Below the pieces are notes generated by a model. The model ran no database searches and was not told the DNA's origin. It worked only from the letters and a program-made list of their open reading frames with translations. DNA of 64,000 nucleotides. Origin: Pecten maximus. Taxonomy: Eukaryota. The stretch is from assembly GCF_902652985.1 (NCBI RefSeq), contig NC_047023.1:25606001-25670000 (forward strand), read 5' to 3'. Both the position numbers and the translations under genes were made by a program. Position 1 is the first letter of the stretch, and each line of letters opens with the position of its first letter. Of the stretch, positions 13,901-49,743 are shown one piece after another.

Positions 13901-16232
13901 GCTACGAAGCAGTTTATGTACAATGTATAATTGCACGAGGCTCACTTTTCTTTATCAGTCTACAGTACACTCCATGCAGTCAAAATCAAATAGCTTTTAA
14001 AGCTCGAGAAAAAGTGCAACTGTGTTGATTATATCCAAAGATTACTGGAGGATTGGTGTGAAATTCTTTAATTTATTGACTCACACTGGCGTTTTGGTAT
14101 GTATATTCTGATAAATTTGAGTAAAGCAATAGCGATTTGAAAATTGGCGGTATTTGACACCCCGGAACCTTTCATTGTCATCGTTATTAGTGCAGTGACC
14201 GCCAATATCTTATACTGTGTGTTATACATGTTAAAGTCAATAAATGAATTGAACTTAGTCGCGTGTAAGCTTTTAGAAAGGATCATGGTCATGTGCTCGA
14301 CTATATATTGCATATACTGTACCAGTATGTTATTTGCTGCATAACAGTGTTACATTGTACAACTGTAAATGAGCTCGGCTCTATCAGTTGTGTCATTCTG
14401 TACTCTACTTACATTTTTATTAACATACAATTTATAATCAGCTTAACCACTTGTGGAAAACAATGTTCAAAATTGCATTCAGGTCCAAGGCGGTGTAAAA
14501 CTAGATTTTCAATTTAAACAATATCAGAATGTATTCTCATACTGGGAAAAAATGATTCGCCTGACAAAACGAAGGCATGTGGCCAAGAATCTTCATCCGG
14601 AAATAAAATTTAGTAAATTCATTGAGGGGGAGTAAAGTAAATATGTAAACCTATCGCACACATTTTCAGAGACCTTCACAGTTTGGGGTACTTAATGAGA
14701 AACTTTTGTGATTTGACTTTTAAATATCAGCACAGCTAATTAGTATTGTTTTTATGCAAACAGGTGCTCGTATAGACCACGCCCACCATGACAACGAAGC
14801 TAAACGTTCTCTCGTGGAGACGTTGATGTTTGAAGAAGCTGTGAGTGAGGCGTTACGACTAACATCCACGGAGGATACCCTAATTATCGTAACGGCCGAT
14901 CATTCTCACCCCTTCAACATCGCCGGGTACTCATATAGGGGCAACGACATCCTAGGTACATTGTATTGATTTATTTATCTACTTAGTTCCTTTGTTCATA
15001 CAGGGGCAACGACATCATACGTACACTCTATTTTGTATTAATGATGTCTTACGATTTCTTTACAATATATTTAATAATTCATTAATGAAAATATTTCAAT
15101 CAGCAAAGTTGAATCATTAAAAACATATGTTTGTTTTTTACAATAATGTGTAAGAAGTTTTATCGACTTAAATAAAACTCTATAGGTAAACAGGTTTATT
15201 TTAATCAATATTTTGATAGATAAACTTATCGGTGTCTAGAAATACAGATGAATTACTTTTTTTAAAGATTTTGATAGATAAAAACAATGGTGTGACAGAA
15301 GCCCTTAATAATTTATAAATATGTGTAGGTATAACTATACCGTACTGGGACGAGCCTCCCAGGGATGGTCTCCCTTACACCACACTTGTGTACGGTAACG
15401 GACCCGGGCGGCGCCCATACGAGGGCAGGGCCAACTACACAGGAGTGGACACGTGTAAGTTGTGATGGTGTTATAAAGGTGGTCTGTCATTCCTAAATCT
15501 GACCATATAACACATAATACTTGACACCCCGATGTTTAGATAGAAAACAGAATTCTGGAGTCGAACAGTAGCTGTTGAAATGTTTCACAAATCTGACCAT
15601 ATACGACCGCACGAATCATACATGTATATGGCAACTAGCAATCCTTATAGAACTAAAGTGATACTAGATTATGTTACTATGGTAACCTACCAACTATGTA
15701 TTATGTAACAGGAGGGCTTTCATTGTTTTAACTGCCCCTATCACTACCATTACCACAGTGCAAACGTCGCCATACAGATGTAATGTTGTTGTACCTAATT
15801 TTTAAAACATATGATAATCTTTCATTTTAAAATTGCGGAAAATCCATTTCTTGGTAGCGATATTCCAGTCTTCATGATCTTTAGAAACATACTTGTCTAT
15901 GCTACATTATATCACTACCTGTTAAGGCGATGTTTCGTTCTACCTTTTCAGCTTCGGACGACTTTAAACAGGAAGCTGCTGTACCACTATCGTACGAGAC
16001 GCATTCCGGAGAGGATGTCGGGATATATGCACTTGGACCAATGGCACATCTTCTGTATGGCGTCCAGGAACAGCATTACGTTGCCCACGTGATGCAGTAT
16101 GCCGCCTGTGTCGGTGATTACAAAGATGATTGTAAGCGCCCGGATGATGGCGATTCCAATGGAGGACATACACTGTCTGTCAATATCTTGTTATTTGTTA
16201 CTTTCTGCATAATCACATCAATCGTTATGTAA
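1761..16232 (+). CDS. ALPL: Alkaline phosphatase paralogue 1 (TNAP-like, predicted GPI-anchored); 5'-partial, 9 coding exons in window
   Basis: Manual splicing with GT-AG sites and consistent phases: 1761-1981, 6521-6695, 7014-7183, 9130-9237, 12707-12809, 13593-13733, 14764-14955, 15329-15454, 15952-16232. Motifs: [16 protein letters not shown] (catalytic Ser), [38 protein letters not shown]; hydrophobic C-terminus. Signal-peptide exon not found. Symbol is family-level; orthology not tested. Confidence 0.95.
2016..5010. repeat. 13-bp minisatellite (TACATTATATCTG)n, ~200 copies, ALP-1 intron 2
   Basis: Directly visible; interrupted by a SINE at 4591-4810; source of all the [13 protein letters not shown] ORFs. 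Confidence 0.97.
4591..4810 (+). mobile_element. tRNA-derived SINE with V-domain-like core (family A)
   Basis: A box TGGCCGAGTGG, B box GTTCGAAAC, core GGTTTTTCTCCGGGTTCTCCGGCTTTCCTCC, A/C-rich tail; close copy at 51539-51760. Confidence 0.9.
5285..5700 (+). mobile_element. Dispersed repeat, probable non-autonomous DNA transposon fragment
   Basis: Matches the reverse complement of ~20460-20898; related partial copy at ~6080-6240. Confidence 0.75.
6521..6695 (+). CDS. ALP-1 exon 3 ([25 protein letters not shown]...)
   Basis: ttttag| acceptor, G|gtaaga donor; carries the catalytic Ser. Confidence 0.93.
7014..7183 (+). CDS. ALP-1 exon 4 ([30 protein letters not shown]...)
   Basis: acag| acceptor, CAG|gtaggt donor; 170 nt. 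Confidence 0.93.
7165..8097 (+). repeat. Degenerate ~31-bp minisatellite spanning the ALP-1 exon 4 donor
   Basis: Unit acagtgacgtcatacag-gtaggtttgatata resembles the exon end aatgacatacag|gtaggtttgatat. Confidence 0.85.
7352..7482 (-). mobile_element. Short 3' end of a LINE-type retroposon
   Basis: Minus strand reads gggccttatggcct stem-loop, AATAAA, then (GAATTT)n tail; interrupts the 31-bp array. Confidence 0.55.
9130..9237 (+). CDS. ALP-1 exon 5 ([10 protein letters not shown]...RRDGHDLIE)
   Basis: gatag| acceptor, GAG|gtcagt donor; 108 nt. Confidence 0.92.
9541..10005. mobile_element. MITE with 19-bp TIRs and TA target duplication (Tc1/mariner-type)
   Basis: GGGACCAACCAACCAATTG ... CAATTGGTTGGTTGTTACC (17/19 match), TA on both flanks, inserted in the 26-bp repeat. 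Confidence 0.75.
10022..11190. repeat. 26-bp minisatellite (CAATTGACATTTTAACTTTCTACATT)n in two blocks (10022-10197, 10810-11190)
   Basis: Directly visible; further copies at 9490-9540. Confidence 0.9.
10470..10810. repeat. 24-bp minisatellite (GGTACAATGTACTACAAACTCCTA)n, block 1
   Basis: Directly visible. Confidence 0.93.
12037..12492. repeat. 24-bp minisatellite, block 2 (~19 copies)
   Basis: Same unit as block 1. Confidence 0.93.
12707..12809 (+). CDS. ALP-1 exon 6 (IWKQ...TDYLLG)
   Basis: ttttag| acceptor, G|gtatgt donor; 103 nt. Confidence 0.9.
12848..13405 (-). mobile_element. Non-autonomous Helentron/HINE-type element with internal ~147-bp tandem repeats
   Basis: Minus strand starts TTTTAGGTCACCTG and ends CAGGTGACCG...GGCCCACGGGCCTCTTGT (subterminal inverted repeats plus 3' hairpin); three internal units containing GACCTTGAATGAAGGTCAAGGTC. 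Confidence 0.75.
13593..13733 (+). CDS. ALP-1 exon 7 (LFDASH...PSLAEMT...GYFLMVEG)
   Basis: ttcag| acceptor, G|gtcagt donor; 141 nt. Confidence 0.93.
14764..14955 (+). CDS. ALP-1 exon 8 (ARIDHAHH...TADHSH)
   Basis: acag| acceptor, G|gtacat donor; metal ligands; 192 nt. Confidence 0.93.
15329..15454 (+). CDS. ALP-1 exon 9 (...[15 protein letters not shown]...)
   Basis: gtag| acceptor, T|gtaagt donor; 126 nt. Confidence 0.92.
15952..16232 (+). CDS. ALP-1 last exon (ETHSGEDV...GPI signal, TAA)
   Basis: ttttcag| acceptor; lies within ORF 15930..16232. Confidence 0.93.
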
Positions 16233-19397: not shown

Positions 19398-19464
19398 ATG
19401 ACAAGTTTAAGGATTACATATCTCTTCTTGGTCATACTAGCTTTGACACACGGAGTCCCTAATA
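19398..19464 (+). CDS. ALP-2 exon 1 (signal peptide)
   Basis: ATG plus hydrophobic core; A|gtaagt phase-1 donor matches the phase of the next exon. Confidence 0.8.
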
Positions 19465-22400
19465 GTAAGTGTACATATAATCAATTATAATGGAAACGTT
19501 ATGAAGTTTTTATAACCTATACAATATCTCGTTTGTGAGGTGGTCCGCAAGGTGTGACAGTACACGCTTCTCTTAAGTGCTTCGAACCTTTATATTTCTT
19601 ATGTTCATGTTTCTTCACAGGACTCTTATTCGTTACGACTTACTTTGAATCCCCGGACTGTATTGTAACTCAACAACTGAAATTGATGATGTTGGAAGTT
19701 ACAGGATTACATCACTCAATCTATTGATGGGTTTCGTCTCACCAACTATATAGGCGTTTGTCCTGTTGGTGTCCTATTCTGGGGGTTGAAGGATTAAATA
19801 GGTACACTGCTCTTACAGCTAAATTAGCATACTTTGCCATTCAAACATATAAAGAAACAGGTATTTCAATGCACTTATTGTTAAATAGATGTTAGAGTGA
19901 AGGCTTGAACACTAACACCTAATGCAGAGCACCTGTACAAGAAAATGTCTGTGTGTACCTTTTATTTACTCTCAAATCCGTCCAGCGTTATTTAAGTTAA
20001 ACTCAATATATGCGCGCGTGTTTGATAAACATATGTTCGAAAATCGAGGAGAAAATGGTAAGGAAAATTGATAAATGAAGATCACATAGGTCCGACTTTA
20101 TCTGGGCATTTTTCACCGTTATGGACGTACACATATTTTATATCATTGTTTCATAAAATTATACTTATGTGAATACATAGTGAAGACCATGACTGATTTG
20201 TTAATGATTTCGCGCAGAATCCAATCCTGGAACTAAAATTAAGCGTATTCTTGAAAGACTGGTCTTGAATGTTTTAGTTACAAGCAATCCGTTGTTGCTA
20301 AAACAGTAATTAACGAATTAACCTTGGTGTGCCAGATTACATGGGCGAAAATCGTTTATATATTATATATTTACGTCTCTACTTTCTTCAGCTTAGTAAA
20401 CTCTGACTGCGTTAAAATTAGCATTAAAAGCAGTGAAAAAAGGCTCGGCGGAGTGATGAGCGCGCAAATTGGTAACATAATCACAACGTCTTTTTTGTGA
20501 CTTTTAACGGAACGTCAACTAGACGGCGCCATTTTCAAAGGACTGGTCAACGCAATTTTAAGCGTTTTCTCCTTTTACCGATGATCTCTGTACAAAAAGC
20601 TAATGCCGAGTGAGTATTTTGTCAAAACCTAAACTGAAGATTGCAGAAATGAGGGAAAATTTAACTTTTCCACGAAGTAAGCTAACAACAAATGGCTGAA
20701 GCGTACAATTTGTATAGAACATTCGACCACGTCACTACTGAATCTGTGTCAATACCCGCTGTGCTTGACAACAGTAGCTAATCCGAGACGGAAAGTGTGG
20801 ATTGAGAATATATCAATTAATTGAAAACGTAAAATGTATTAAACAAATGTATTGAGTTGTTTCTTTTAATTTTATTAACAATACATGTGTCTTTACGTAG
20901 CAACCACGGCTGCCGTAGTTACCAACTACGAAATATTGTGACGGCGGTCACATCCGTGCTTTATTACGTCTTTTTCTGGGTATGAATTAACTTCTGTTCC
21001 CGATATATGTTTGCAATCAGACAGGTTTGAAAGAAAGCACTATTGCGCGAACATAGTCTATCAGCACGGTTACCGATAAACGGGTTAAAACGGGCACATA
21101 AGGTGTAGGGCAAGTGCAATATTCTTTCTATGTTTGAATTTTGACGTCATGATATAATCTTAATTTGTTGACGTCTCCTTTCTATAGCATAATATATTCG
21201 TTGAGATATTCGTGCGTGTAAGATTCTAAATATAGGGTTAGATTTTCTGAGCGGCATAAGCGAACAGTTAGATAATTAAACAATTAGATAAAACTACATT
21301 GTGTTATTAACAAATCTGTCGTCTGCTTCAAAGAACACAGAAACTAGGCTGAGTCAAAAATGCAGTGTACAGCGCCCACGTAAGAATTCCTCAATACAAT
21401 GCAGCATTTATTCTTGCCGCATACATGTACATGAATTTACCCGTGGGTAGAAAAACAGACGATGTCAGGCATGAGAGATCAAGGTGTCATTTTATACACC
21501 TGGCAATTAGAGCATGAAGTGATTTGCTGTGTAACCAAACGGCACAGCTCAGATTAAGCAATTAGCTACAATGCTGCAATGTTTACGTCGGCGACGTCAT
21601 AGGAACATGCGACGTCATAAAAGCAGGAGCATTTGAATAATACCCTTTTCCATACGTAAAGTTTATATACAGCGTTCTGTTCAGTGTAAATATTTTTTAT
21701 AGGATCTAAGGTATGTACAAAATGTAGCAAATTATTGATATAACTACATAATGCGTAAAAGAAATAAAGGACTGAAACTGCTGTAGCCCTATAACTTTTC
21801 AAAGTTAAGGATCAAATCAAGTGATATTACACAGGCATATCAATATAATTTAGGACATGGCAACACGATTATTTATGAGGAAAAAGCAAAGGTAGTTTGA
21901 AGTAAAGCACGGAAATTTCTTTAAAAAAAAAACAACCAAAAACACAGTTAAACTATTTCTTTCGAAAACATTCCTCTTAAAATGTTCAAATGTATGCACT
22001 GAATTTTGACCTTTAATAGTATTATAATAGGAACATCTGTATTAATCGAATAACCTCCATATATGTGATATTTGTGTGTTATTATTCACAACCGACTTTT
22101 GGATTTTATTGTCAAAACAATACTAATCCTTATGTTATCAATAGTGTCAAATCCAGTCAAACAAATGCATAAGCGCATGGTTATTTTGTGCATTATATGT
22201 GATCCGCATGAGCCTTCTGCACTTTGTTCTCCTGAAACGTGCATTGCTTTGCATGTTATGCAGAAGTTTATCAATAGTTCAATACATTACATGCCCACAA
22301 CAAAGACCCATGGCTAGCCATAACACATACTAATAATGTATTGCTACTTCTCTTCAATTGCATATGAGAAGTAATTTATAGGCTTGTAAAATATCATTCG

Positions 22401-25400
22401 ATTTGCTAAATTAGGTAGTTTAAGCACTACCTTTCAGGCAACTATATGTTTTTTTTTCGATATATATGTATTGAGATTTTATAATATAGTTTGTAACCCA
22501 ATTTTGATATTAAATTGATATTAAAGCAACACACTCCCTAACAAATATTCATGAATGTTTAATTTTGACCTCTTTACAGATTTCAGACTTAATATATACA
22601 CACCAAATTATCTCGAATCAAAAACTGGAATAACATATATATTTATGAAATTTCTAAAAATAATATCTGAGTCCGACGGACCAATTTCTATCCAATAAGT
22701 ACTACAGTGCAACAGTCGGGTTATCAGTCAACAATAACAATGGCGGAACTCCGAAAGCATGTGCCTGCCAAAACGCAGACAGATTCGTAAAGAAACGTAA
22801 AAGGGTCTGGAATCGGCAAAACCTCATGATTTCCTAAGAAGAAGAATTGATTCGTTGGAACTTAGCGAGAGAAGAAAAGAGATTGATTTCCCATTTTGTC
22901 GGGCGTCTATTAAATTGCTTAGCCTTTTCCTTGTTCCTCGTACATTGTCAACTTCACCAATCTGATTTTTATCGATGTTTTGTTGTATTGATATTGCTAT
23001 ATTTTATAATAAGTATTTGGTGGTATGTTTGTTTATGTTGATCAGTTATTACGGGAATATTTTGCTAATATGATCAAATGAAAGCATCAATAGACAAGTT
23101 CACGCTTACTCGATAGTGAATCAACGGCCATGTGTGTAGTTTATTTGTAGTGTGCGTTGATGTAGCCTCGTTCTCGGCTCCTTGACAAATCTCGCGATAA
23201 CAATAAATGCGGCGAGTAATTTTTATATACTGATGTCACAATGATTCCCCCAATCAAGCGGTCATTTTATTGTTACATTGTAGGAGAGCGTGAATGAGCA
23301 TGTGATTGCTTTTGATATATGTGTATAACGAGAGTTTTAGGTTATTTGGGAGCATGTGGCTTTAAATACCGTGATGGAATTGCATCACGATCAGAAATTG
23401 TCATAAAATGCTGATGTTTGATATTTAAAGTTTACTCTTTATTGCCTTTCTCTCTTTCCGATATTGTTAAATTGATATGATTCTTAAACAGGGATATTGT
23501 AAATCTGTCAAGACTCCCCCTTGATAGCGTACATTTTTAACATACGGATTACTGGAGCTATGTGTACTGAATGGGTGTTAGTACATATACAGTATATGTA
23601 AAATACAATGATGGTTTCATGCAGCCGATTCATAAACCACTCAGAAACTAAATTCCTTTTAACAGAATTCATTCAAACAGATAATCCCATACTGAAAATT
23701 AACATCAATTACAAAGATATTAAACAAAAATTGTTTTATTAATGAAACGTTACGATTATTACAGTAATTTGCACAGAGTTGCATAATTTTCTATCCTAAT
23801 ATAGGCTAGTCAGGGCTTATTCCACAATTCTTCCCTAATTAACAATTGTTACTTTTGACTAAAATATCTGTTAAAGGTTAAACTAAGTTAACAGATATAT
23901 CTATTAATATTTGATCAAATGAAAATACACAAATATATTTATAAAGACACAATGTAAGAACGACTTTTGTTGTACATAAAAAATGTATGTACAAATATGT
24001 CACATTTTTATGATTTAAAGATGCTGCATCTATGAAAAATAGTAATTATGACTGCTTGAAAATATCAATAGACAGTTGTGAGTCGTTTCCCAGAAAATTG
24101 GACGTATACACTATTGTATTTTATACATGATTATCTAGGCCCTATGACTTTAAACAGCCTCTTTCAGATTTTATACATCATCTTCTAATCACAGACGTGA
24201 TTGCTTTGTTTATATAGAATCGTAAATTGTCCTTTTTGTTCACCATTGATATGACTGGTAGCCATTTTATTTGTTAGGATCGTCTATTTACAAACATCCT
24301 GCCTAATACACTACAAAGTAACTCTTATATCTTTACGTTAACAAATCGCCATATTTTCATGATATAATGCAAAACAGGATAAGATATATTCGTAGTCTTG
24401 GAGACTTTGTTACTTACATACTTTTAACTTATGTTGCCTCTGGACTATTGTGGGTAGATAACACGTAGCTACCTTTGGTTTGGATGGCCCTTAATCCCTG
24501 TATCAATGTTGAGTTAGGCTTCACAAATGCCTGTCTAACTTTTTTAAGAACTAGATAATTACTGAGATGAGAGTGAAAATATTCATTCATTAAAAGAGAA
24601 AAACCTATTTTGACTGTTGGTAATTCAATCATTAACATAACTAGAGCATTATTTTGCACTATTCAAAATACATCAAACTACATATTGCTCATTAATCCAT
24701 AAAACTGCCATATGGTGAGTGATTTAAACATGGTATTTGATGTGTTTTATTCAGCAGGAAACACAAATTGGAATCAAATGGCAAGAGACAGTCTGGAAGA
24801 AGCTCTGAAATTGAAGCAAATCAACAAGGTTGCAAAGAATATCATACTGTTTATTGGTGATGGACTCGGGCTCTCAACCGTGACAGCTTCAAGGATACTC
24901 AAAGGTCAAAAGATGGGTAACCCTGGGGAAGAGACTGTTCTCGAGTTCGAGAAATTCCCATACGTAGCCCTGTCTAAGGTAATGTGATCTATGTCAAGCG
25001 TTAAACGCACAGCATGTCCCAATATATATATATAGGTACATATATTTATGTTAACGATCTGTGATATCAGACACCAAAAAAAGTTAATTTACAGGGCAGG
25101 AATGCGGGGGAAGAATGCTCTCTGTTTACATATCATATGTACCATGCATAGTCATTTCAAGGTATGTAAAATGAATAGTGACACTCGATATATATATATA
25201 TATATTCTATATGTGTAACCTTTATCTCAAGATGGCCGAAGTGATTTGTGTGCAATTAAAATTGATATTTGAAATCATACTGTCCTGTTTTCAGAAAATA
25301 TACAAGACCTTCAAAACATGCTAGACTTTTTGCATTCGTATTCTTCACGATGGGATTTAGAGGTAAACCTGGATAAAACTAAAATAGTTGTGTTCAGGAA

Positions 25401-28400
25401 AAGTAAAAGAATTTATCCTATTGAACGATGGACATACAATGGTATGCCAATTGAGTTGGTAGATCAATTTTGTTACCTTGGTCTGACTTTTAATTATAAT
25501 GGTAAATTTACTGTTGCTTTGAATAACTTTGCTATGCAAGGCAGAAAAGCTTACTTCTTGTTAAATAGGAAAATGAAAAGATTCATGTTAAACTGTGAAT
25601 ATCTCATGTTTACTGAACTATGGATGTGAAGTTTGGGGATTTTGTCCGGCACCACAGTTAGAGAAAGTACACTTACTGTTCTTAAAAAATATACTTGGTA
25701 TAAAAAAGACCGCCAATTCTTCCATGGTCTACTCTGAGCTTGGGCGTTTCCCTTTACAAATTAGTCGCAAGATTTCTGTTCTAAAATATTGGATTAAACT
25801 TCTGAATACGGATAATTGTGTTTTAAAATCATGTTATAATGAACTTGTAGAGCTTAACGTAACAAAGCCAAGATGTAAAATGAATCTCATGTATCATGTA
25901 AAGCATGAGCTTAGTAGTTTCGGATTCTATGACGTCTGGTTGTCCAAGTGTGTTCCTAATGAAAAACATTTTTTGCTGTTATACACACAACGGGTGCATG
26001 ATATTTTTATCCAAGAGTTGAGAAACAATTTCGAAAATTCTTCTAAATGTATTTTGTATCAGCATATTGTAGATCGATTTGAATTGCAGTTGTATCTCAC
26101 GAAGTCTTTTAAATTTAGAAATGTACTTACTAAGTATAGGATACAAGCACACGATTTAAGTGTTGAAACTGGTAGATACCAAGGTATTCCCAGAGCCCAA
26201 AGACTGTGTGTATTATGTAATAGAAGGGAAGTTGAAGATGAAACTCATTTTATATTATTATGTCCAGTTTATTCAGAGTTGAGAAGTGTGTACATCAAGC
26301 CGTATTTGTATCGCCGCCCTTCTGTATTCAAGTTAACTGAATTATATGCAAGTAAAAATGTTAAAACTTTAAGAAATTTCAGTAAATATCTAATGCATGC
26401 TTCGTCCAAAAGAATATCTCTACTCAATAACTGAATATTGCGTTAGATAGTATTTGTCAAGTTTCGTTATTTTGCTTGCTTTAGAGAGTGTGTTATATAC
26501 ATGTGTGTAATGGTATGAATTATAATTATATCGGTTGTGTTCTCCGCCATCTTGTACAAATGAATTGTAATGTACGTTTATGTATTATGTAATTCCTATA
26601 TGTTGCGCTACATTCGGAAATAAACTAAACTAAACTAAACTAAACAAAGTTCTGTATTATGTTTTGATAATGTGTATGATAAGCGATTGTGACGGCATAG
26701 CAGTTTTTGTTTTGTTTTTGCAACCATTAGACACTTTCCTCAGCTTATCAATGATTGTTTTAACTGGATAATATGATTTGTTTATTTGAAATTGTGAAGA
26801 TGAATTCCATTGAAGTGAATATATTTCATGAATCTATAGGTTGCTGAAATTTTGGCCATCTTTTTACAAACTACCTTGAATGGCCGTTTCATATAAAGGG
26901 CTGTAATTGTTGATTGTAACAAAACGTCTCCCTAACTGATGGACAGGTATACGGCTCTGATAAGATGGTGCCGGACTCCGCCGCCACAGCCAGTGCCCTG
27001 ATGTGTGGTGAGAAGACAAACTGGTACCTTGTTGGAACCCGAGATCCGGTAGCTATCTCCGATTGTGTCGCCTCTAAAGCCGAGAACATGAAGATGACGT
27101 GCATTCTGGACCATTTTATAGCTGACGGTAAGTAACAACAGTATTAGTGTGTATATTAAAGATCTGAATGAAATATGTATCGGAATCTGGTATTTTGTTT
27201 GATATATGATTTATGACTTCTTACTCATTAATACATACGTGAAAAGAGTCCACATGCCTAAACTATTTATTAAAGAAGTCATATAGAGAACAATAAAGGA
27301 ATCATACAAAGAACAATGTAATTAAAATCTGATACCCAGGTAAAAAGGTATGTGTCCTCTACATATATAGGGTATAGATTATTGTATATATGTCCAGTGT
27401 GCCTGTAATGTCGAATTTGGTTAACCAAGTCCGACGGGACGTAGTCTTGACCTTATATAACACCTTCCATGTATGGTTTTCTGAACACACCTGTCTACAT
27501 CACTGATCCTCTGGTCCTCTGATCATCTGATTATCTTATCCTCTCTCCCTGTCCTTAACTCTTGCCAGACGTACGCGCGAGCGGTCCAGCTATCTACCAC
27601 TTCATATATACACAAATCACGCCATTTTGTCAGCAGCGTACACGTGGAGTTAACTGCCGACACATTGGCGTGATTTGTCACAAATGATGTGTGTTATGTT
27701 CAAATTAGAGTTTTGACTAAAATGGCAATATTCCAAAGACTCCCTTAATTTTATTGTGCTATACTCCAAATAGCTGTTAAGATATGATTCATTCGCGTGA
27801 TCACAGTGCACTAACGCCCACCTATGTATACATTTTTAATTTACTGAAAGACTTCCTATCTTTTGTCATACGTGAAATTTGGTGCACTATGCTCAAAGTG
27901 AACATAACATCATTGTATAAGAATGTGATCGGAATAAATCTTTATTAAAATCCTATTCAATCAAATTGAATATTTACAATGATGTCAATCTACTTTTGTT
28001 CTTGTTTTGCTCTCTTATCATTGATTTTGAGTTTGATTACATGCTGGTATCCCTTTTTTCTCTTTCTTTTCTTAACTCAATGAAGATAAAGAGCAGACAT
28101 CACAGATTTAAAATCAATGTACTTATTTCGATTTTAAACTATTTTCTAATTGTACAGGTCGGTCTACGGGAGTAGTGACATCAGCCCGTGTCACCCACGC
28201 CACGCCCGCCTCTGCTTATGCTCATACCCCAAACCGGGATTGGGAGGGGGACTACCAGACGGCTGGTATCCCCGGGGACTGTAAAGATATTGCCTATCAG
28301 CTGATATATGACAACAACGACATCAATGTATGTGACTGTTATCGTATACACGAGTGACAGATTTATATATCTAAATGTGTAGATATAACATAGATCTACT

Positions 28401-31400
28401 ACCAATTCCTTAAGATGGTGCCAATATAGGCATTTCTGTGGCCGATCAGTGATAAGGCTAATATTTTGCGGGAAGATACTTCAAGGTCAGCTGCATATGC
28501 TAATATTAGCCTTATCGCTGATTGGCTGCAGAAAGTCCCAACGGGCATCACTGTGTCGAAACCGTTTTTTTTTTTTGCTCTACACGATTGCATCGCTATA
28601 ATACACTAATTTGCCTATACTATAAGTAATACACTTTGCATTATTGTATTATTACTATATATAAATATGATAAATGTACGAATGTCCTTGACAAAACATA
28701 GGTAATTTAACTATGAAACTGCATATAAACTTAAAGGAATATTTCTTCATTCGGAAACATGCACAATTTCTATTGATGAAATATATGTCCGAACGATGAT
28801 TATATATGAGTGTTAGTGCTTATGTGTAATGATTAACGCCGAAATGTACAGGGAAAAGGCGTAGTATTTACAAATATTGTCGGTCGAATTAATAATTTTC
28901 AGAACTTAATACTTGAAAAACTTTAATTTATCTTGAGAAGTAAAATTGCCATATTAAAGTAAAGATTATAACTTTTACTACTTAGGAAAAATGCATATTT
29001 GCCAGGAAGTTTAATTTTGACGAGCCAGACTTTATTCAAACGAAGGAATTCCCTTTTAAGTTTGTGTAAAACGTTTGTTGCTAGCGTTGATAATTCATCG
29101 GGGACCGTAACGACGGTAGCATGTACATGTAAGTATAAAATTTACGGTATAGATGAATATAAAAAGCAATGCCTTTTTGGAGACAAACTGTCCTGTATAC
29201 TGCACTCTTACGCAACGTGAGAACCAGAACACTTGGAATGGGATCTGTTTCCGTGTTTTCACGCAATTACATTTGTCATGTAAGTTGATACGCATATACA
29301 TTGTAGTTTAACCTTCGATTGACATGTAGATAGTGCCCCTAGATATTCAGTCAGTTACGTTTGCGACCTTGACCAAGGTTATTAACAAGACCAATGAAGG
29401 CCGGAAACTACTTCCTAAAAATGAAATATCATTTACATTTACATGTGTGTTTTTCTATTTGTCAGACGTCAAAGCACATTTTTTTAAAACTCTAAATCTA
29501 TTTTCGATACAAAGCTATTATTTAGTACTCTGGATAAAAACTACCAAAAGACACGTGCTCCATGCATTTTTTCCATATCAATTCATCGACTGAAACATTG
29601 GTCCTCTATATTCTCCTGCATACCCTATTCAAGAACAACACAACCACTATATGCATTTGAGCCGAGCGGACGATAGAGCCGGCGTTTAATCAATCAAAAC
29701 ATTCCAAATATATACAACACAATTTCATGTATACAAACCATCGGTAAATTCTTAACTCCCTCACGCACTCTATTTACTAATAATACAATATGAAAAACCA
29801 AGCGAGCCACCCAACCTTAAAGCCGTTTTTTTAACGGAGAAAGGAGGTGCACCAGCTCTAAAGCTTCAGGTTTCTTAACAAATGCTGGGATTTTTAACCT
29901 ATTCTTGAGAACAAAATGCCTGGTATTATAATACAAAACACCTACAAAACTACGAAACTATATTACTCTTCCGTAACAATATATACAACAATATTGAATG
30001 AAAGTTTGTCACGACCTAGAAGTCCGCGGCTAGAATCACTACACTACTATACATTTCGCTCGAGCGCCTGTATACATACCCTTTCGTGACTATCTTACAC
30101 GAACTCAGCCTCTGATTGGCTGCCCAGCCTAGCACACCTTTCACGCGCTATTATCGCACGCGAAAAACATAGGACAATAAATTCCCTATATTCTGCGAAA
30201 CGCGGTAATTTTAAATTCTTTAGTAAAGTCCTCTAGATCTGTACAACAAATACAATATTGAATAAGGCATTTTAATAACTTGCAAAGTTTTCAAGTGATT
30301 TTTTTCTTCTTAAATACATACAGTAAGTTTCAGAAGACAATTTCTGCAAATGCCTCATGTTATATTGTTTACTATAATGCATATTTAAAAATATATATAT
30401 ATAATGTAACAGTTAAATTTATTAATGAATAAATAAATAAATAAATAAATAAATAAATATGAAAGTGAACATATGAAGTATTATTATGATGATAGAGACA
30501 ATTTGATTAGAACAGAAAATACTCTTTCAACCATCAAAACATCAATAACTATTTGCTTTTTTATCGTATTTACAAGTTTTATTGTTCGGAATTTTGACAA
30601 GATAGATATTTGATACCAAAAATTTCAGTTTGTAAGATACATGTATAAAACCTACCAAATCAACAGGTACTGTGTATACAGTACATTCATTGATCTGAGC
30701 TACGTAATGTAATCTTACAAACTTATGTTTAGGTTGTGTTTGGAGGAGGACGCCGGTCGTTCCTACCCAATACTACAGTAGATCCAGAAACTAACACCAT
30801 CGACAAGCGGCATCGTCAGGATGGACACGATCTCATACAGGTGAGGGTGTAGTGGATATGACCTCATACAGGTGAGGGTGTAGTGGACACGATCTCATAC
30901 AGGTGAGGGTGTTGTGGATAGGACCTCATACAGGTGAGGGTGTCGTGGATATGATCTCATACAGGTGAGGGTGTAGTGGACACGATCTCATACAGGTGAG
31001 GGTGTTGTGGATAGGACCTCATACAGGTGAGGGTGTCGTGGATATGATCTCATACAGGTGAGGGTGTAGTGGACACGATCTCATACATGTGAGGGTTTCG
31101 TGAATAGGACCTCATACAGGTGAGGGTGTCGTGAATAGGACCTCATACAGGTGAGGGTGTAGTGGATAGGATCTCATACAGGTGAGGGTGTAGTGGATAG
31201 GACCTCATACAGGTGTGGGTGTCGTGAATAGGACCTCATATAGGTGAGGGTGTAGTGGATATGACCTCATACAGGTGAGGGTGTCGTGAATAGGACCTCA
31301 TACAGGTTAGGGTGTAGTGGATATGATCTCATACAGGTGAGGGTGTAGTGGATATGACCTCATACAGGTGAGGGTGTAGTTGATAGGACCTTATACAGGT

Positions 31401-34400
31401 GAGGGTGTAGTGAATAGGATCTCATACAGGTGAGGGTGTAGTGAATAGGATCTCATTCAGGTGAGGGTGTAGTGGATAGGATCTCATACATGTGAGGATG
31501 TAGTGAATAGGATCTCATACAGGTGAGGGTGTAGTGGATAGGACCTCATACAGGTGAGGGTGTAGTGGATAGGATCTCATACAGGTGAGGGTGTAGTGGA
31601 TATGATATCATACAGGTGATGATGTAGTGGAAAGGATCTCATACAGGTGAGGGTGTAGTGGATAGGATCTAATACAGGTGAGGGTGTAGTGGATAGGACC
31701 TCATACAGGTGTGGGTGTCGTGAATAGGACCTCATATAGGTGAGGGTGTAGTGGATATGACCTCATACAGGTGAGGGTGTCGTGAATAGGCCCTCATACA
31801 GGTGAGGGTGTCGTGAATAGGACCTCATACAGGTTAGGGTGTAGTGGATATGATCTCATACAGGTGAGGGTGTAGTGGATATGACCTCATACAGGTGAGG
31901 GTGTCGTGAATAGGACCTCATACAGGTGAGGGTGTCGTGAATAGGACCTCATACAGGTGAGGGTGTAGTGGATAGGACCTCATACAGGTGAGGGTGTAGT
32001 GGATATGATCTCATACAGGTGAGGGTGTAGTGGATAGGACCTCATACAGGTGAGGTTGTAGTGGATAGGACCTCATACATGTGAGGGTGTAGTGGATAGG
32101 ATCTCATACAGGTGAGGGTGTAGTGAATAGGATCTCATACAGGTGATGATGTAGTGAATAGGATCTCATACAGGTGAGGATGCAGTGAATAGGACCTCAT
32201 ACAGGTGAGGGTGTAGTGGATATGATCTCATACATTTGCGGGTGTCTTGAATAGGATCTCATACAGATGAAGTCGTAGGGGGTATACAGTGAGGTTGTAG
32301 TGCATACGATCTCATAAAGGTGACGATATAGAGGCCGCGATCTCATACAGGGAGGATGAAACGGACACGTTTACAACATGATATACGCATGATCGCGTAA
32401 TTTCAAGCAACCGAGAGTGAATAGGGTTTTAAACTCGTACAGCTGAGAGTGAAGAAGGTTTTGATCTCGTACAGATGAGTGCGTAGTGACCAAGATGTCG
32501 CACAGGTAAAAGTGTAGTAGAGCATTATCATCATAAAATATATATTTATGTTTATCAACAGGAATTTCATAAATATCAGTTACCCAGGTCTATTAACCAA
32601 GATGTTAAAACATAATGGCAGTGCGCATGATCAATTTGAGCATGGTGCTACTTCTATATAGTTGCATATTGTAATGAATATTTTGTGAATCTTGCACTAA
32701 TGGCCAATGCAATGTATAGACCCCTAACTGTAGTATTCAGTCAGCTAAAGAAATACTTTACAAGGTTAGAATATCATCAGTAAAGAAGCAGTCACTTGAG
32801 ACCATGCCATTCAAAGTTCTGCAGTACAAATGCAGTGGAGCATATCAGGGCGGTTTTTATGGAGATGTTGGATGTTATAATTAATGTATGATGACAACTT
32901 TTTCCCGTCCGTAGCATCATTTCCTCCCCATTGTAATTGTTTTTTGGTAGAGCGAAATGATTGAATATCAAAACTGCATAGCCAATAACAGGCAATATTT
33001 TTGGTATAAGAATACTCGTGGATCCGTCTTTAGTTAGCAGTTGTCGATGGTAACTCGCTGTATTAGTCGCCAATGTGTGTAAATGTAACAATGATAGTAT
33101 TTTATTCAGATATGGAAAGATATTCAGCGGACCAAGGGACATAAACATGACTATGTATGGAACAAGGGTCAATTTGATAACATCAACCCCGAGGAGGTAG
33201 ACTACGTACTAGGTAATGCCAGAGTTTGCTGTACTGCAGCACATCAATGTCTCCAAGCACTAAGAACTATATCAAGTGGGATGCATATCGCTGTCCTAAT
33301 TTATTTGAAGCATTATCTCGGTCATTTGGGCCATAAGAAACGACAAATTGTACAAGATTTGTACAGAAGACAAACACGATTTCAGATTGAGTTAGATAAA
33401 TTGGAGCTAAACGTGAATCAAACTATGTGACGTTGATATTAAAGGCCTAAAGTGTTACTACCTAGTAGCTGACTGGGGAAACTAAAGGTAGAGGGAAATG
33501 TCGAAATATATATAGGGAGGTGCGATATCCCCGTTTTCAATAATTTGCAATATTAGATGTAAAATAACGCCAAATACACTCTTTCTTCACAAATACACCA
33601 ATTTAGGATGTAATGCAGATATATACAATGTGGAGCTGTAGATACAGTCTAGGCTTCAACGTCAGTTTTTATATGCGTTCTTAAGACTATACAGTTTATT
33701 TTAGGATTGTTTGGATCGAGCCACATGCAGTACGTACTAGATCGTGACCCCTCCCCAGCCGGTGAACCAACCCTGGCAGAACTAACGGAGAAAGCAATTA
33801 ACATACTGAAGAAGAACGATAAAGGGTACTTTATGATGGTAGAAGGTACGTATTTAATATAGTATGGTATACATTTTGTATATGCAATTTATAGTATCAT
33901 CTGATATTTGTACGCAAAAAGCAATGATGCCATTTTGTAAATGCGATATACACGAACAAATATTCCTGATTATAAAGGTACGCAAATATTACTTCTCTAA
34001 TGGGTGATTACGCAAAGATAAGTGATGTAATTTTACACCCATCACGGAAATAGAAATAACGTCATTCTGTATATATATAACTTGATATTGATTATGATAA
34101 TAACAAACATAACCAAAAACAAAGCAGAACAAAACTTACTGCTACAGAGGACGTTTATCATTTTCGTATATCACCCTCTCTATCCAAGACGCAATATTCC
34201 CACAACTAGAATCGTCATATTAAACAATAAATAAGTAAATAAATTAATTAATTAAAAAACATTACTAACACGTTATGATAACTACATATCTTTTGTACAA
34301 ATCCATTATCAACAAATGATACCGTGATATGATTTATTTCTTTAAATCATGATTTGTGTACAGGTGCCCGTATAGACCACGCCCATCATGATATCTTAGC

Positions 34401-37276
34401 TCATTACGCCCTAGAGGAGACGTTGGCCTTAGAGGCGGCGGTCAAAAAGGCTGCCGATATGACGTCAGAGGAGGATACTCTCATCATTTTCACCGCCGAT
34501 CACTCTCATGTGTTTAACATTGGGGGCTATACACGGAGAGGGAATCCTATTTTCGGTAAGTTTCTCTCTAGTGACCTACACACGGAGAGGGAATCCTATT
34601 TTCGGTAAGTTTCCCTCTAGTGACCTACACACGGAGAGGGAATCCTATTTTCGGTAAGTTTCTCTCTGGTGACCTAGAAACGGAGAGGGAATCCTATTTT
34701 CGGTAAGTTTCTCTCTAGTGACCTACACACGGAGAGGGAATCCTATTTTCGGTTAGTGTCTCTCTAGTGACCTACACACAGAGAGGGAATCCTATTTTCG
34801 GTAAGTTTCCCTCTAGTGACCTACACACAGAGAGGGAATCCTATTTTCGGTAAGTTTCCCTCTAGTGACCTACACACGGAGAGGGAATCCTATTTTCGGT
34901 AAGTTTCCCTCTAGTGACCTAGAAACGGAGAGGGAATCCTATTTTCGGTAAGTTTCCCTCTAGTTCCCTACACACGGAGAGGGAATCCTATTTTCGGTAA
35001 GTTTCCCTCTAGTGACCTACACACGGAGAGGGAATCCTATTTTCGGTAAGTTTCCCTCTAGTGACCTACACACGGAGAGGGAATCCTTTTTTGGTAAGTT
35101 CCCTCTAGTGACCTACACACGGAGAGGGAATCATATTTTCGGTAAGTTCCCTCTAGTGACCTACACACGGAGAGGGAATCCTATTTTCGGTAAGTTTCCC
35201 TCTAGTGACCTACACACGGAAAGGGAATCCTTTTTTTGGTAAGTTTCCCTCTAGTGACCTACACACGGAGAGGGAATCCTTTGCTATTGATTAGTTTCTT
35301 TCTAGTTACCTAGACACGGAGAGGGAATCCTATTTTCGGTAAGTTTCCCTCTAGTGACCTACACACGGAGAGGGAATCCTATTTTCGGTAAGTTTCCCTC
35401 TAGTGACCTACACACGGAGAAGGAATCCTTTTTTTGGTAAGTTTCCCTCTAGTGACCTACACACGGAGAGGGAATCCTTTGCTATTGATTAGTTTCTTTC
35501 TAGTTACCTAGACACGGAGAGGGAATCCTAATTTCGGTAAGTTTCCCTCTAGTGACCTAGAAACGGAGAGGGAATCCTATTTTCGGTTAGTTTCCCTCTA
35601 GTGACCTACACACGGAGAGGGAATCCTATTTTTGGTAAGTGTCTCTCTAGTGACCTAGAAACGGAGAGGGAATCCTATTTTCGGTAAGTTTCCCTCTAGT
35701 GACCTACACACGGAAAGGGAATCCTATTTTCGGTAAGTTTCTCTCTAGTGACCTACACACGGAGCTGAACTGTCTTTTAAGGTAAGAAAATATGTAACAG
35801 AGACGAAATTCTATCTCCACTGATCTTCTCTCTAATTGTCTAAACACAGAGGGATACCTTTCTCCGTCATATTTACTTTGTATCATTGTACAAACGAGAC
35901 ACAATTGAATACAACATGCGGCTTTAAATTACCAATAGTATTGAGAATATATAGGGGTGGAATGGCTTCATAGTAATTTATTCATAGCTAATTTCAAAAG
36001 AACTTGATATTCGATATATTCTAGTTCAAGTTTCCAAAAGAAAATAAACATAGCTTCCAATGTAACAGTTATGGACATATTCTTGGTTTGTGTACCTGAG
36101 CCGATAACCTTTCCCAATGGAATACCCCCTGATATATGCTGGGAAAGTTTTAATTGGATTGTAACGAACTTAGATAAGTTGGTTCCTATCAAATGTTGGG
36201 TATGATTCATTTTCAGTATAGATATTTTTCGGTTTATATTTTATAGGTATCTCTGAACCACAGTCTGACGAGCCTCCACTTGACAATCTCCCATACACCG
36301 TGCTAAACTATGGTAACGGGCCATCTCGAGTCCTCAACGGAACACGAGTCAATCTGACCGGAGTCGACACAGGTGACTAGCCATTGTCTAACAGTTTTCT
36401 TGATTCCTGAGTGTGTTATCCCTAGATAAACTCTTGTCCAGTGTTTTTCACGACATGTCATGTCACCATTTTCAGATATCCCAGTTCGAATATAGTGACA
36501 TTAGGAAAGTAATCGTCATTTTGTAAATAATACTGTTGCACTTAAATAAGGAAAATAATCGGGATTAAGCCGTATATTGTCATTATTTAAATAGGTATTA
36601 TTATGATCTTATTCTGTAAATCGGCTATTCTGGAGACATTTGCTATATATATTTGATGTAGATAAATAAGCCAATATATGATATAAGTGCTGTATTGTAC
36701 CTAAAATATGAGTTGCGATTTCAGTTAAGCTTCTAATAAAGATAGAACAATACATCGCTAAATGTACTTTATATTAAAAATTTTATTTAGCTTTTAGTTA
36801 TTCATGCTAATTAAGCTTTAAATAGTTATTGTATCTAAATAAACCAGTAAAATTTAACACGAGCTCTTCTCCTATTCTAATTCATTTGTTGTTTTCAAAA
36901 CGATGATTTTTTTTTTTTTATTTTAATAATTTTAATTTTACTTCCATGTTTTAATTCATTTATTAACACTAAATATATTTAATGTATCACAGCTGCTAAA
37001 GACTATTTACCTGAGAGTGGGGTCCCCTTGGCTTACGAAACTCACTCCGGAGAGGATGTCGGGATATATGCCCGTGGCCCAATGGCACATCTCCTCCATG
37101 GAGTCCAGGAACAACATTATGTAGCTCACGTGATGCAGTATGCTGCTTGTGTTGGACACTTCAGATCTGACTGTAACCGGGATGTAAATAATGGCCGACA
37201 GCTTATGCCTAGTCTTATGGTTATCTTCTTGTCGATATGTTTTAAATATGCAAAAACATATTTTGTGATATATTAA
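19398..37276 (+). CDS. ALPL: Alkaline phosphatase paralogue 2 (TNAP-like), complete, 10 coding exons, 530 aa
   Basis: Exons 19398-19464 (signal peptide [19 protein letters not shown]), 24758-24978, 26947-27127, 28158-28327, 30733-30840, 33110-33212, 33705-33845, 34364-34555, 36247-36372, 36993-37276. Total 1593 nt, open frame; catalytic and metal-binding motifs present. Symbol is family-level. Confidence 0.95.
20460..20898 (-). mobile_element. Dispersed repeat, inverted copy of 5285-5700
   Basis: Reverse-complement similarity, e.g. aaaattaaaagaaacaactcaa and tttccgtctc(a/g)gatta. Confidence 0.75.
22525..23361. mobile_element. Non-autonomous DNA transposon with TTAA flanks (Kolobok/piggyBac-type)
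   Basis: TTAA|AGCAACACACTCCC ... GGGAGCATGTGGCT|TTAA imperfect TIRs. Confidence 0.6.
24758..24978 (+). CDS. ALP-2 exon 2
   Basis: cagcag| acceptor; [12 protein letters not shown]; AAG|gtaatg donor. Confidence 0.93.
25278..26645 (+). mobile_element. 5'-truncated non-LTR retrotransposon (RTE-X/CR1-group-like) in ALP-2 intron 2
   Basis: Begins just after the expected YADD motif ([15 protein letters not shown]), then KTKIVVF, YLG, YGCEVWG, ELG, CxxC..EDETHF..CP; frameshift near 25595; (TAAAC)n tail. Confidence 0.9.
26947..27127 (+). CDS. ALP-2 exon 3 ([25 protein letters not shown]...)
   Basis: acag| acceptor, G|gtaagt donor. Confidence 0.92.
28158..28327 (+). CDS. ALP-2 exon 4
   Basis: [20 protein letters not shown]; AAT|gtatgt donor. 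Confidence 0.93.
30733..30840 (+). CDS. ALP-2 exon 5
   Basis: [10 protein letters not shown]...RQDGHDLIQ|gtgagg. Confidence 0.92.
30823..32350 (+). repeat. 31-bp minisatellite containing the ALP-2 exon 5 splice donor, roughly 45-50 copies
   Basis: Unit ggata(t/g)ga(c/t)ctcatacag|gtgagggtgtagt; first copy is the exon end; decays toward 32520. Confidence 0.96.
33110..33212 (+). CDS. ALP-2 exon 6
   Basis: IWKDIQ...VDYVLG|gtaatg. Confidence 0.9.
33705..33845 (+). CDS. ALP-2 exon 7
   Basis: LFGSSHMQY...EPTLAELT...GYFMMVEG|gtacgt. Confidence 0.93.
34364..34555 (+). CDS. ALP-2 exon 8
   Basis: ARIDHAHH...[22 protein letters not shown]|gtaagt. Confidence 0.93.
34531..35764 (+). repeat. 49-bp minisatellite containing the ALP-2 exon 8 splice donor, ~25 copies
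   Basis: Unit acacggagagggaatcctattttcg|gtaagtttccctctagtgacctac. Confidence 0.96.
36247..36372 (+). CDS. ALP-2 exon 9
   Basis: [14 protein letters not shown]; G|gtgact donor. Confidence 0.92.
36993..37276 (+). CDS. ALP-2 last exon
   Basis: cacag| acceptor; [19 protein letters not shown]; TAA. Confidence 0.93.
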
Positions 37277-45122: not shown

Positions 45123-45600
45123 AGACTGTTTTTTACATGAAATAAACTGCCGCTGTATCTGATTAACTTTGTTTAGAAACATGAACATGTTTTACAAGCA
45201 ATGCTATATATTCAAATATAGATAACAACAAATAACTGTTCCAGTATTTCTAAATATATCGACTTTTTAAAAATAAATATTGCCTCTGTTATGTAGCCTG
45301 TTACTGTCTAATTTGACAAGTTTGGCAGTCAGAATTTCGAAATTCAACTAATATCTACAGAAATATCTAAACGAATTAAAAGAAAGGTCGAAGGAAATTC
45401 TACTCACCAAAGATCTTTTAATCCCAAACTTTTTGCAAACCTTGAAAATGTATCCAGGTGTCCGATTGAATTTGATCCCCTGAAGAGCGCCACGATGTAG
45501 CCGCGAAAGTACTAGGGATACAGCAGATCTGTGTTTGACTTTTTATTTCATTATTATTATTTACCGTCACATGGACATTTTAACTTTATTCTATATATAT

Positions 45601-45976
45601 ATATATGTCAAGTAGTAATAACGACAGTACAGACAAGTAAATTGTCAAATTTTCGAGGCAATCTGCCCCTTTATCAAGACACAGGTAAATTACATACGAT
45701 CACATATAGACATAATACATGGAACAGTTACACAAATATAGTAGGTATAAACAACAAAAAGTATCATAATGTTGTAAAAATGATCCCCCTCGGTCGATAC
45801 TAAATTCGCCGAGGGCCTATTATGATTAATAAGGAAACATCTTTGGTGGTGTACAGATGCTAAAAGTAAATGAATGAAGGAATGAATGAATGAATGAATG
45901 AATGAACAAATAAATAAATAAATAAATAATATAACTTAAAGGTTTAACAGAAAAGCATCGCGGGTCGATTCGATGT
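45601..45976 (-). repeat. 3' pseudo-LTR of the Penelope element
   Basis: Matches 49744-50115 except in the (ATGA)n/(AAAT)n tract. Confidence 0.92.
45643..45681 (-). ncRNA. Minimal type I hammerhead ribozyme (U3-A8 variant)
   Basis: Minus strand: TGTC-TTGATAA-A-GGGGC agatt GCCTC-GAA-AATT-T-GACA. Confidence 0.75.
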
Positions 45977-46729
45977 GATGGCAGCGCGTGTTATGTCATG
46001 AATGTTTTTGTTATTGTTTTTTTCTTCGATATGTACATTTCGTCCCGCAAAACTCGGCCCAAACAGCGGGTTGCAGTGACAATATCGGGTGGCCAATCCC
46101 ATATTAAAATTAGTTCGTTTAAATGAAATGGAACAAGTTTTAAAAACATATAGATGTAATTGTGTAGAAAGGTAAAATTTAGACATTAGAAACCAAACGA
46201 AAAGGTGGTCGAAAGATCCTATTATCGTGACGAAAACCGAATGTCAGGACGACTCGTCACAAACCGACATCATGTACTCGCCCAACTTATTCAGCCAATC
46301 AGCTGCTGTTTCATGTAAACCAAGTCCCTAAGGAAAGTGTGTTTGTGGGGCCTGTAGGGGTTGGTCTGATTAAATAACATATGGAGTGGGTACTTCCTAT
46401 AAGCGAGAATAGAGATTATAGGAATAATGTTTGAAGAACAAACATCATACATCCCTACTAAAAATAGGATGGCGTAGGACTACAGGTGGAAAAAAAGGCG
46501 GGAATCCCCCAGATGGGGGTTTCCCCGTCCGTTGTAAGGTCCTTTGATAACACATGTGCTCCTATATGCTATGAACCTGTGCACGATATTTGTTGTGTGT
46601 GGCGAGAATAGATATTTATTCCGTCATTTTAACTCCAAGTGAATGATATAGGCGAATAAATCTGCAGTTTTGACATATAGTGAGGAGTTTCTATTGTGAG
46701 AGTCCCTCAACTACGTAACATGAGTAGGA

Positions 46730-49426: not shown

Positions 49427-49743
49427 TGTTGTCGTAACAGTGGCTAAATGTAAACAGGTGTAAACTAGACAAATTACGGTGATATTGGGACAATACGGGT
49501 ACACAGACAGACAACAGAATATTACGGTGATATTGGGACAATACGGGTACACAGACAGAAAACAAAATATACTTAAATAAAAGAAACGGATTGGATAAAC
49601 CGGATCACAATATAGGTAGCCTAGATTATGATGCGTATTACTTCGTGTGATAGGTAGGGTCTAGTAAGTAATAACGACGGTATAAACCAATATAGGTACT
49701 GGATCCTAACAAACAAATGTTGGATGCGTATTACTAGAAATAG

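What the first reader, a model, noticed from the sequence alone, without database searches (positions are those of the whole stretch)
30823..32350. About 45 tandem decoy donors (CAG|GTGAGG) after ALP-2 exon 5, each behind an in-frame stop
Most 31-bp units recreate CATACAG|GTGAGG, identical to the true donor. Reading past the first donor gives GTG AGG GTG TAG, so use of any later donor includes a premature stop. Inference: array length could act as an allelic rheostat on ALP-2 output through nonsense-mediated decay. The AG|GT junctions also resemble recursive splice points, though they lack a strong pyrimidine tract.
Basis: partly seen in the sequence, partly recalled or inferred. Interest (0 to 1): 0.7.

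Follow-up and report, generated by a model that had tools for sequence, protein, structure and literature searches.

The report
Repeated splice donor in phosphatase intron
A 31-base piece spanning the end of one exon of an alkaline phosphatase gene and its splice signal is repeated 46 more times in the next intron, but the assembled transcripts use the original signal, so this is likely a tolerated example of a known repeat type and not an expression dial.

Summary
The array is real: 46 in-register 31-bp copies follow the exon-5 donor; 44 keep GT and 33 the exact CAG|GTGAGG. One stop codon in unit 1 precedes all of them. It is an exon/intron-boundary minisatellite, a kind described in human F7 and CBS and as amphioxus 'mirages'. 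Spliced contigs from 3 of 4 runs (three studies) join the first donor to exon 6; the fourth does not reach the junction. Contigs drop rare forms, so a small leak is untested. Such duplications sit at 18 of 338 predicted donors and 18 of 342 predicted acceptors in two gene families here, only 1.5-1.9 times the intronic background, and several are larger than this one. The stop is unremarkable: 138 of 320 ordinary donors have one within 31 nt, and decoy offsets are random in frame. Best reading: a tolerated by-product of a very repeat-rich genome, with the exon-proximal donor winning. The NMD rheostat has no support here but is not excluded; recursive splicing is unlikely. The scan had already reported this kind at other loci of the same genome.

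The parts
30733..30840 (+). ALP-2 coding exon 5 (108 nt, phase 0/0); its last ~19-22 nt are the exon-derived part of the repeat unit
   Evidence: Open spliced frame; contig loose ends match 30808-30837 joined to exon 6
30838..30846 (+). Authentic 5' splice site CAG|GTGAGG, of median strength (PWM 8.3; 44 of 80 ALP-family donors score lower)
30841..32270 (+). 31-bp donor-spanning minisatellite: 46 downstream pseudo-donor positions, 44 with GT, 33 identical 9-mers; 25 distinct unit types among the first 45, with internal block duplications
30850..30852 (+). In-frame TAG in unit 1 (codon 254), included by use of any later donor
32271..32510 (+). Degenerate, out-of-register tail of older repeat copies
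   Evidence: sequence; approximate matches at 32320, 32443, 32475
33110..33212 (+). ALP-2 exon 6, the acceptor partner; intron 5 is 30841-33109 (2269 nt)
34527..35764 (+). Second donor-spanning minisatellite in the same gene (exon 8 donor at 34556; 49 bp x 25); first donor used in contigs; no stop in unit 1, frameshift instead
19398..37276 (+). Host gene ALP-2, alkaline phosphatase family (PF00245), 10 coding exons, about 531 aa
   Evidence: stop position read
7166..8095 (+). Older, degenerate 31-bp donor-derived array after the ALP-1 exon 4 donor (7184); unrelated unit sequence
14931..15035 (+). Single 65-bp duplication of the ALP-1 exon 8 donor (14956), with a weakened copy

Best explanation
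This is a minisatellite made from the exon 5/intron 5 border of an alkaline phosphatase gene; the assembled transcripts are spliced at the first, exon-proximal donor, and the 46 downstream copies are likely silent, selectively near-neutral pseudo-donors. Step 1 (shown): the unit is about 19-22 nt of exon end plus about 9-12 nt of intron start, and it resembles this gene's own exon more than the paralogue's. Step 2 (inferred): a short tandem duplication across the junction was amplified by slippage or unequal exchange. It can only grow into the intron, because the exon side is under purifying selection. Step 3 (shown for the dominant form): splicing uses the first donor. Step 4 (inferred from human F7 minigenes): the most upstream functional donor out-competes identical downstream ones through 5'-to-3' scanning or exon definition. 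Step 5 (inferred): any leak to donor 2 or later would carry a stop at codon 254 and would probably be degraded by NMD, as an incidental safety net rather than a regulatory design.
For: Origin: units match their own exon end at 16.0 of 19 nt on average (units 2 and 5 at 19 of 19) against 12.1 of 19 for ALP-1. A genome search found matches of 77% or more only inside this array; other hits were 72-76%. Use: loose ends before exon 6 in X2, X3 and X9 (studies P2, P3, P4) are exon-5 letters 30808-30837, including 14 nt absent from the units, and the exon-8 array is skipped the same way. Commonness: 18 of 338 predicted donors and 18 of 342 predicted acceptors in the ALP and SNF families carry a junction-spanning duplication. 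10 of these 36 have 20 or more extra copies, up to 69 at a donor and 102 at an acceptor. Background: 1080 of 5000 intronic control positions lie inside a local repeat and 139 of 5000 in a first unit, so splice sites (36 of 671) are enriched 1.9-fold, or 1.5-fold once positions inside arrays are excluded. The rate falls gradually into the intron. No selection for stops: decoy offsets mod 3 are 12/10/11 of 33, and 4 of 33 are in-frame and stop-free against 3.0 expected. Precedent: PMC1557585 and PMC3087553.
Against: The RNA evidence is contigs only, which drop rare isoforms, from runs whose RNA status is a guess, though they skip GT-AG introns. No read data lie across the array. The enrichment at splice sites is modest but non-zero (Fisher p = 0.0008 unconditional, 0.03 conditional). 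The exon-8 donor carries such a duplication in 4 of 10 ALP paralogues (nominal p = 0.0013, before correcting for the many junction classes examined). The donor core of the units has not decayed (0.56 variant alleles per site against 0.82 elsewhere; small numbers). In ALP alone donors exceed acceptors (10 of 80 against 2 of 90, p = 0.014); this did not replicate in SNF (8 of 258 against 16 of 252). In human CBS and 6-16 two pseudo-sites are used (PMC1557585 introduction). Scanning was shown in mammalian cells, not in this animal.
Confidence: 0.8

Rival explanations
1. Leaky but incidental: a few percent of transcripts use donor 2 or 3 (+31, +62 nt), carry the codon-254 stop and are degraded. 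This lowers output slightly and depends mainly on the sequence of the first units, not on copy number, as described for human CBS and 6-16. It can coexist with the best explanation.
For: Donors 2-8 score the same as the true donor. Two proximal pseudo-sites are used in CBS and 6-16 according to the introduction of PMC1557585.
Against: No such junction appears among the contigs of the 3 informative runs (weak, since contigs drop rare forms). F7, LMNB2 and PDGF use only the authentic site.
Confidence: 0.25
2. One reading: array length varies between alleles and sets the fraction of transcripts diverted to NMD, tuning ALP-2 output, possibly adaptively.
For: 33 of 46 downstream donors are identical and all lie behind a stop. 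Internal block duplications suggest length instability. [quoted passage not shown]
Against: The first donor is used in contigs. The stop and frame pattern are at chance level across 33 comparable duplications. Arrays this size or larger are common here, at both donors and acceptors. Distal pseudo-sites do not compete in F7.
Confidence: 0.06
3. Recursive splicing: the AG|GT points act as zero-length exons and the intron is removed stepwise.
For: 41 of 45 units keep AG before the GT position. Their acceptor scores (3.1-6.7) overlap the low end of real acceptors: 27 of 90 ALP acceptors score no higher than the best unit.
Against: The median unit score is 5.6 against 8.4 for 342 predicted acceptors, and the pyrimidine fraction is 0.46 against 0.66. 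The AG|GT is simply the copied exon end CAG plus donor. The intron is 2269 nt, whereas recursive sites are known from very long introns (recalled).
Confidence: 0.03
4. Splice-site-linked mutational hot spot: a process tied to splice sites (for example transcription or spliceosome pausing, or R-loops) seeds duplications preferentially at exon borders.
For: 1.5-1.9-fold excess at splice sites; recurrence at the exon-8 donor in 4 of 10 ALP paralogues and at the exon-5 donor in 2 of 10.
Against: There is no sharp peak at the junction: 36 at offset 0, 35 at +20, 29 at +40, 27 at +100 and 19 at +300, of about 670. This is what arrays growing until bounded by an exon would give. Some cases in paralogue pairs may share one origin.
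Confidence: 0.12

Closest known systems
Human F7 IVS7 37-bp VNTR (Borensztajn et al. 2006, PMC1557585; seen: abstract, introduction passages, full Discussion)
   Same: The first unit spans the exon/intron border, identical pseudo-donors follow, and only the most upstream site is used.
   Different: 5-9 repeats there against 46 downstream copies here; 4 exonic nt per unit there against about 19-22 here. F7 is shown to be polymorphic and was tested in minigenes; neither is shown here.
Human CBS IVS13 31-bp VNTR, 6-16, LMNB2 and PDGF minisatellites (seen only as described in the introduction and reference list of PMC1557585)
   Same: Donor-reiterating minisatellites. CBS has the same 31-bp period, by coincidence, and 15-20 units; 6-16 has 25 pseudo-sites.
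   Different: CBS and 6-16 use two pseudo-sites as well as the authentic one, and a CBS activity association is reported by title. No leak is seen here at contig resolution.
Amphioxus 'mirages' in Adh3, BflGb6 and BflGb9 (PMC3087553; seen: abstract and section-16 passages)
   Same: Invertebrate minisatellite-like duplications of exon/intron borders, at both 5' and 3' borders. [quoted passage not shown]
   Different: Different phylum, and units of 150-160 bp in the globins. Length differences between haplotypes are shown there and are untested here.
Recursive splice sites / ratchet points (recalled, no paper read)
   Same: AG|GT juxtaposition.
   Different: Those are single conserved sites with strong pyrimidine tracts in very long introns. 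Here there are 46 purine-rich copies in a 2.3-kb intron, explained by copying of the exon end.

Membership tests
Exon/intron-boundary minisatellite ('mirage'; F7/CBS type) | Head-to-tail repeat whose first unit spans a real exon/intron boundary | tested here: met
   boundary confirmed by spliced contigs
Exon/intron-boundary minisatellite ('mirage'; F7/CBS type) | Splice signal reiterated in many but not all units | tested here: met
   44 of 46 keep GT, 33 of 46 the identical 9-mer
Exon/intron-boundary minisatellite ('mirage'; F7/CBS type) | Unit derived locally from the host exon, not from a dispersed satellite | tested here: met
   the genome search skips very common words, so rarity is not fully proven
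Exon/intron-boundary minisatellite ('mirage'; F7/CBS type) | Regular mRNA made from the authentic, exon-proximal site | tested here: met
   3 of 4 runs, three studies, dominant form only
Exon/intron-boundary minisatellite ('mirage'; F7/CBS type) | Length polymorphism between alleles (VNTR) | not testable with these tools
   No second haplotype of this locus in G000; internal block duplications only suggest instability
Regulated unproductive splicing (AS-NMD) | Alternative stop-bearing isoform detected and stabilised by NMD block | tested here: inconclusive
   None among contigs, which drop rare forms; no NMD-block data
Regulated unproductive splicing (AS-NMD) | Stop or frame arrangement beyond chance, or conserved | tested here: not met
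   138 of 320 ordinary donors have a stop within 31 nt; offsets random in frame. Cross-species conservation not tested.
Recursive splice site | Strong 3' splice site (pyrimidine tract) abutting a donor, in a long intron | tested here: not met
   Pyrimidine fraction 0.46 against 0.66, median score 5.6 against 8.4, intron 2269 nt
Recursive splice site | Intermediates or saw-tooth read pattern in nascent RNA | not testable with these tools
   Only assembled contigs were available

The most novel reading that the evidence does not exclude
In this genome about one splice site in twenty is reiterated by its own minisatellite, with recurrent hot junctions. These arrays form a genome-wide layer of copy-number-dependent splicing leak (NMD drain or U1 sink) that tunes expression allele by allele, and the ALP-2 exon-5 array is one such dial.
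Probability: 0.07. Interest if true: 0.65.

Novelty: new member of a known kind. Interest (0 to 1): 0.2.

Why it matters
As a single locus it matters little: the kind is described and the main transcript is normal. Its residual value is as test material. A genome in which roughly 5% of sampled splice sites carry identical decoys, some with 50-100 copies, is a natural panel for asking how the spliceosome picks the exon-proximal site outside mammals, and for the 'mirage' model of intron gain. It is also a practical trap for gene annotation and read mapping. If copy number did tune expression, it would reveal a class of expression variants that SNP-based studies cannot see.

Tried and rejected
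(1) Donor-specific bias: suggested by the ALP family (10 of 80 against 2 of 90) and rejected after the SNF family (8 of 258 against 16 of 252; pooled 18 of 338 against 18 of 342). (2) Selection for stops or frameshifts behind decoys: rejected. (3) Selection to mute decoys: no excess change in the donor core. (4) Dispersed satellite origin: no close match outside the locus. The three weakly similar arrays fetched (L080-L082) are other minisatellites with a similar core and were not shown to be exon-anchored. (5) Allelic length test with unplaced contigs: the near-identical pairs found (L083/L042, L019/L011) carry no catalogued junction array, so the test was uninformative. (6) Run search: no RNA holder listed; the holders are 'RNA?' guesses kept as contigs, and no raw reads were available. 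(7) A second laying, on the exon 3-5 side with the first two units, gave no result, so +31 use was not seen from that side. X1's one contig does not reach the exon 5/6 joint. (8) Turri et al. 1995 is not held; PMC10078293 passages did not bear on donor-spanning repeats. (9) Six literature searches listed no paper on such arrays in molluscs. The library lacks most subscription journals and no supplements were read, so absence from print is not established. Rows dropped before counts: the C3071 ALP copy (near-duplicate of the C16 14.68-Mb gene); SNF hits on unplaced contigs; 1 of 61 SNF clusters not fetched; 6 of 264 donors and 16 of 268 acceptors removed as duplicates or low-scoring; 9 of 680 sites too near a stretch end; 3 of 36 duplications without an intact decoy in the frame test.
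Full report
Observation. The window lies in an animal genome of 918 Mb (G000:C9:25606001-25670000); earlier notes call it a scallop (not checked here). It holds two alkaline phosphatase genes (PF00245). ALP-2 has ten coding exons that give an open frame. TRF reports a 31-bp array at 30832-32270 with 46.4 copies. In register with the true donor (GT at 30841) there are 46 downstream positions: 44 keep GT, 33 have the identical CAG|GTGAGG and 30 are identical from -7 to +6. Reading on from exon 5 meets TAG at 30850-30852, so every later donor would include the same stop at codon 254 of about 531. The lost half carries the motifs that bind the catalytic metals (recalled).

Origin. Each unit is about 19-22 nt of exon end plus about 9-12 nt of intron start. 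Units match ALP-2's own exon end at 16.0 of 19 nt on average, and units 2 and 5 at 19 of 19, against 12.1 of 19 for the paralogue ALP-1. A genome search with five units found matches of 77% or more only inside the array, and 72-76% hits in three other arrays. The first 45 units fall into 25 types with repeated blocks, and the 3' end frays into degenerate copies. This fits a local duplication across the junction followed by ordinary minisatellite turnover (inference).

Which donor is used. Contigs of four runs were laid on 32600-34600. In X2, X3 and X9, from three studies, the letters before exon 6 are exon-5 positions 30808-30837, including 14 nt that no unit contains, so the joint is at the first donor. 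X1's single contig does not reach the joint. The same three runs join exon 8 straight to exon 9, skipping the second array (49 bp x 25). The runs are only guessed to be RNA, but their contigs skip GT-AG introns. Contigs drop rare variants and nothing was laid across the array, so a minor leak remains untested.

How unusual it is. I annotated junctions by homology in 10 ALP genes (80 donors, 90 acceptors). I added junctions in 60 stretches of SNF transporter genes (258 donors, 252 acceptors, predicted from homology and ALP-trained matrices). A symmetric test asked whether the junction is copied into the adjacent 500 nt of intron. It is at 18 of 338 donors and 18 of 342 acceptors, whereas random pairings pass in 0.25% and 0.1% of 6000 trials. 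23 of the 36 have three or more extra copies and 10 have twenty or more, including donor arrays of 50, 63 and 69 and an acceptor array of 102. Some paralogue pairs may share one origin, and the sites outside ALP-2 are predictions.

Background rate. Introns here are very repetitive: 1080 of 5000 control positions lie inside a local repeat and 139 of 5000 in a first unit. Splice sites (36 of 671, 5.4%) are enriched 1.9-fold (Fisher p = 0.0008), or 1.5-fold against positions not inside arrays (p = 0.03). The rate declines gradually from the junction into the intron and drops to 1 and 0 of 671 at 40 and 60 nt inside exons. That is the pattern expected if arrays arise everywhere and are bounded by exons. 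Two results cut against pure neutrality: the excess is non-zero, and the exon-8 donor is duplicated in 4 of 10 ALP paralogues (nominal p = 0.0013, uncorrected).

The stop. 138 of 320 donors without duplications have an in-frame stop within 31 nt, and 64 of 320 within 12 nt. Among 33 duplications with an intact decoy, the offset modulo 3 is 0, 1 and 2 in 12, 10 and 11 cases. Four would give stop-free in-frame insertions against 3.0 expected. The exon-8 array of this gene has no stop in its first unit. The stop is therefore not evidence of design.

Recursive splicing. The unit AGs score 3.1-6.7 (median 5.6) against a median of 8.4 for predicted acceptors, with a pyrimidine fraction of 0.46 against 0.66. 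However, 27 of 90 ALP acceptors score no higher than the best unit, so score alone does not exclude it. The intron is only 2269 nt, and AG|GT follows trivially from copying CAG|GT.

Known systems. PMC1557585 (abstract, introduction passages and Discussion) describes the F7 37-bp VNTR, in which only the most upstream of identical donors is used and downstream ones work only if upstream ones are inactivated. It lists CBS and 6-16 (two pseudo-sites also used) and LMNB2 and PDGF (authentic site only). The CBS papers were seen only as titles. PMC3087553 (abstract and passages) describes amphioxus 'mirages' at both borders, which do not disturb regular splicing and vary in length between haplotypes; this lead came from earlier notes. 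Four earlier notes report the same kind at other loci of this genome; they are unchecked AI notes and not independent support.

Verdict. This is a new member of a known kind. The dominant transcript uses the first donor (shown). Silence of the copies through upstream-first selection, and removal of any leak by NMD, are inferred. Confidence 0.8; a small incidental leak 0.25 (compatible with the main reading); a copy-number rheostat 0.06; recursive splicing 0.03. Interest 0.2.

Noticed in passing
window 34527-35764; 14931-15035; L016 about 7602-7894; the C16 25.19-25.21 Mb ALP gene (L017/L018): The exon-8 donor is duplicated in 4 of 10 ALP paralogues, with different unit lengths (49, 65, 36, 38 bp): a possible recurrent hot junction.
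   Followed up: partly
L050 (SNF gene, + strand, donor near 5557): A 39-bp donor array with 25 intact copies whose first extension is in frame and stop-free. Decoy use would add 13 residues per unit, so this is a better test locus for donor choice than ALP-2.
   Followed up: partly
L035 (+ strand, acceptor near 7638); L070 (acceptor near 3981): Acceptor-spanning arrays of about 102 and 51 copies, in frame and stop-free to the first intact decoy.
   Followed up: partly
window 24755-24758: Tandem NAGNAG acceptor at ALP-2 exon 2 (two AGs three bases apart); either would keep the frame.
   Followed up: no
window about 25290-26435: Truncated LINE-like reverse-transcriptase tail ending in a (TAAAC)n run at 26621-26645 in ALP-2 intron 2 (read by eye; family recalled).
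   Followed up: no
window about 45590-50110: A minus-strand element of about 4 kb that looks like a Penelope-type retroelement (RT plus GIY-YIG-like end; recalled). It is flanked by direct repeats of about 390 bp (about 45600-45990 and 49730-50110), and a 42-bp x 30 array starts right at its edge.
   Followed up: no
window 12889-13295: 148-bp x 2.8 repeat inside a MITE/Helentron-like element of a type recalled from bivalves.
   Followed up: no
window about 4590-4810 and 51540-51760: Two copies of a tRNA-like SINE-type element of about 215 bp.
   Followed up: no
L011 versus L019: An unplaced contig holds a 92-95% identical copy of part of an ALP gene with different minisatellite copy numbers (20-bp unit x3 against x13; a 24-bp x32 array in one only), showing rapid intronic repeat turnover.
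   Followed up: partly
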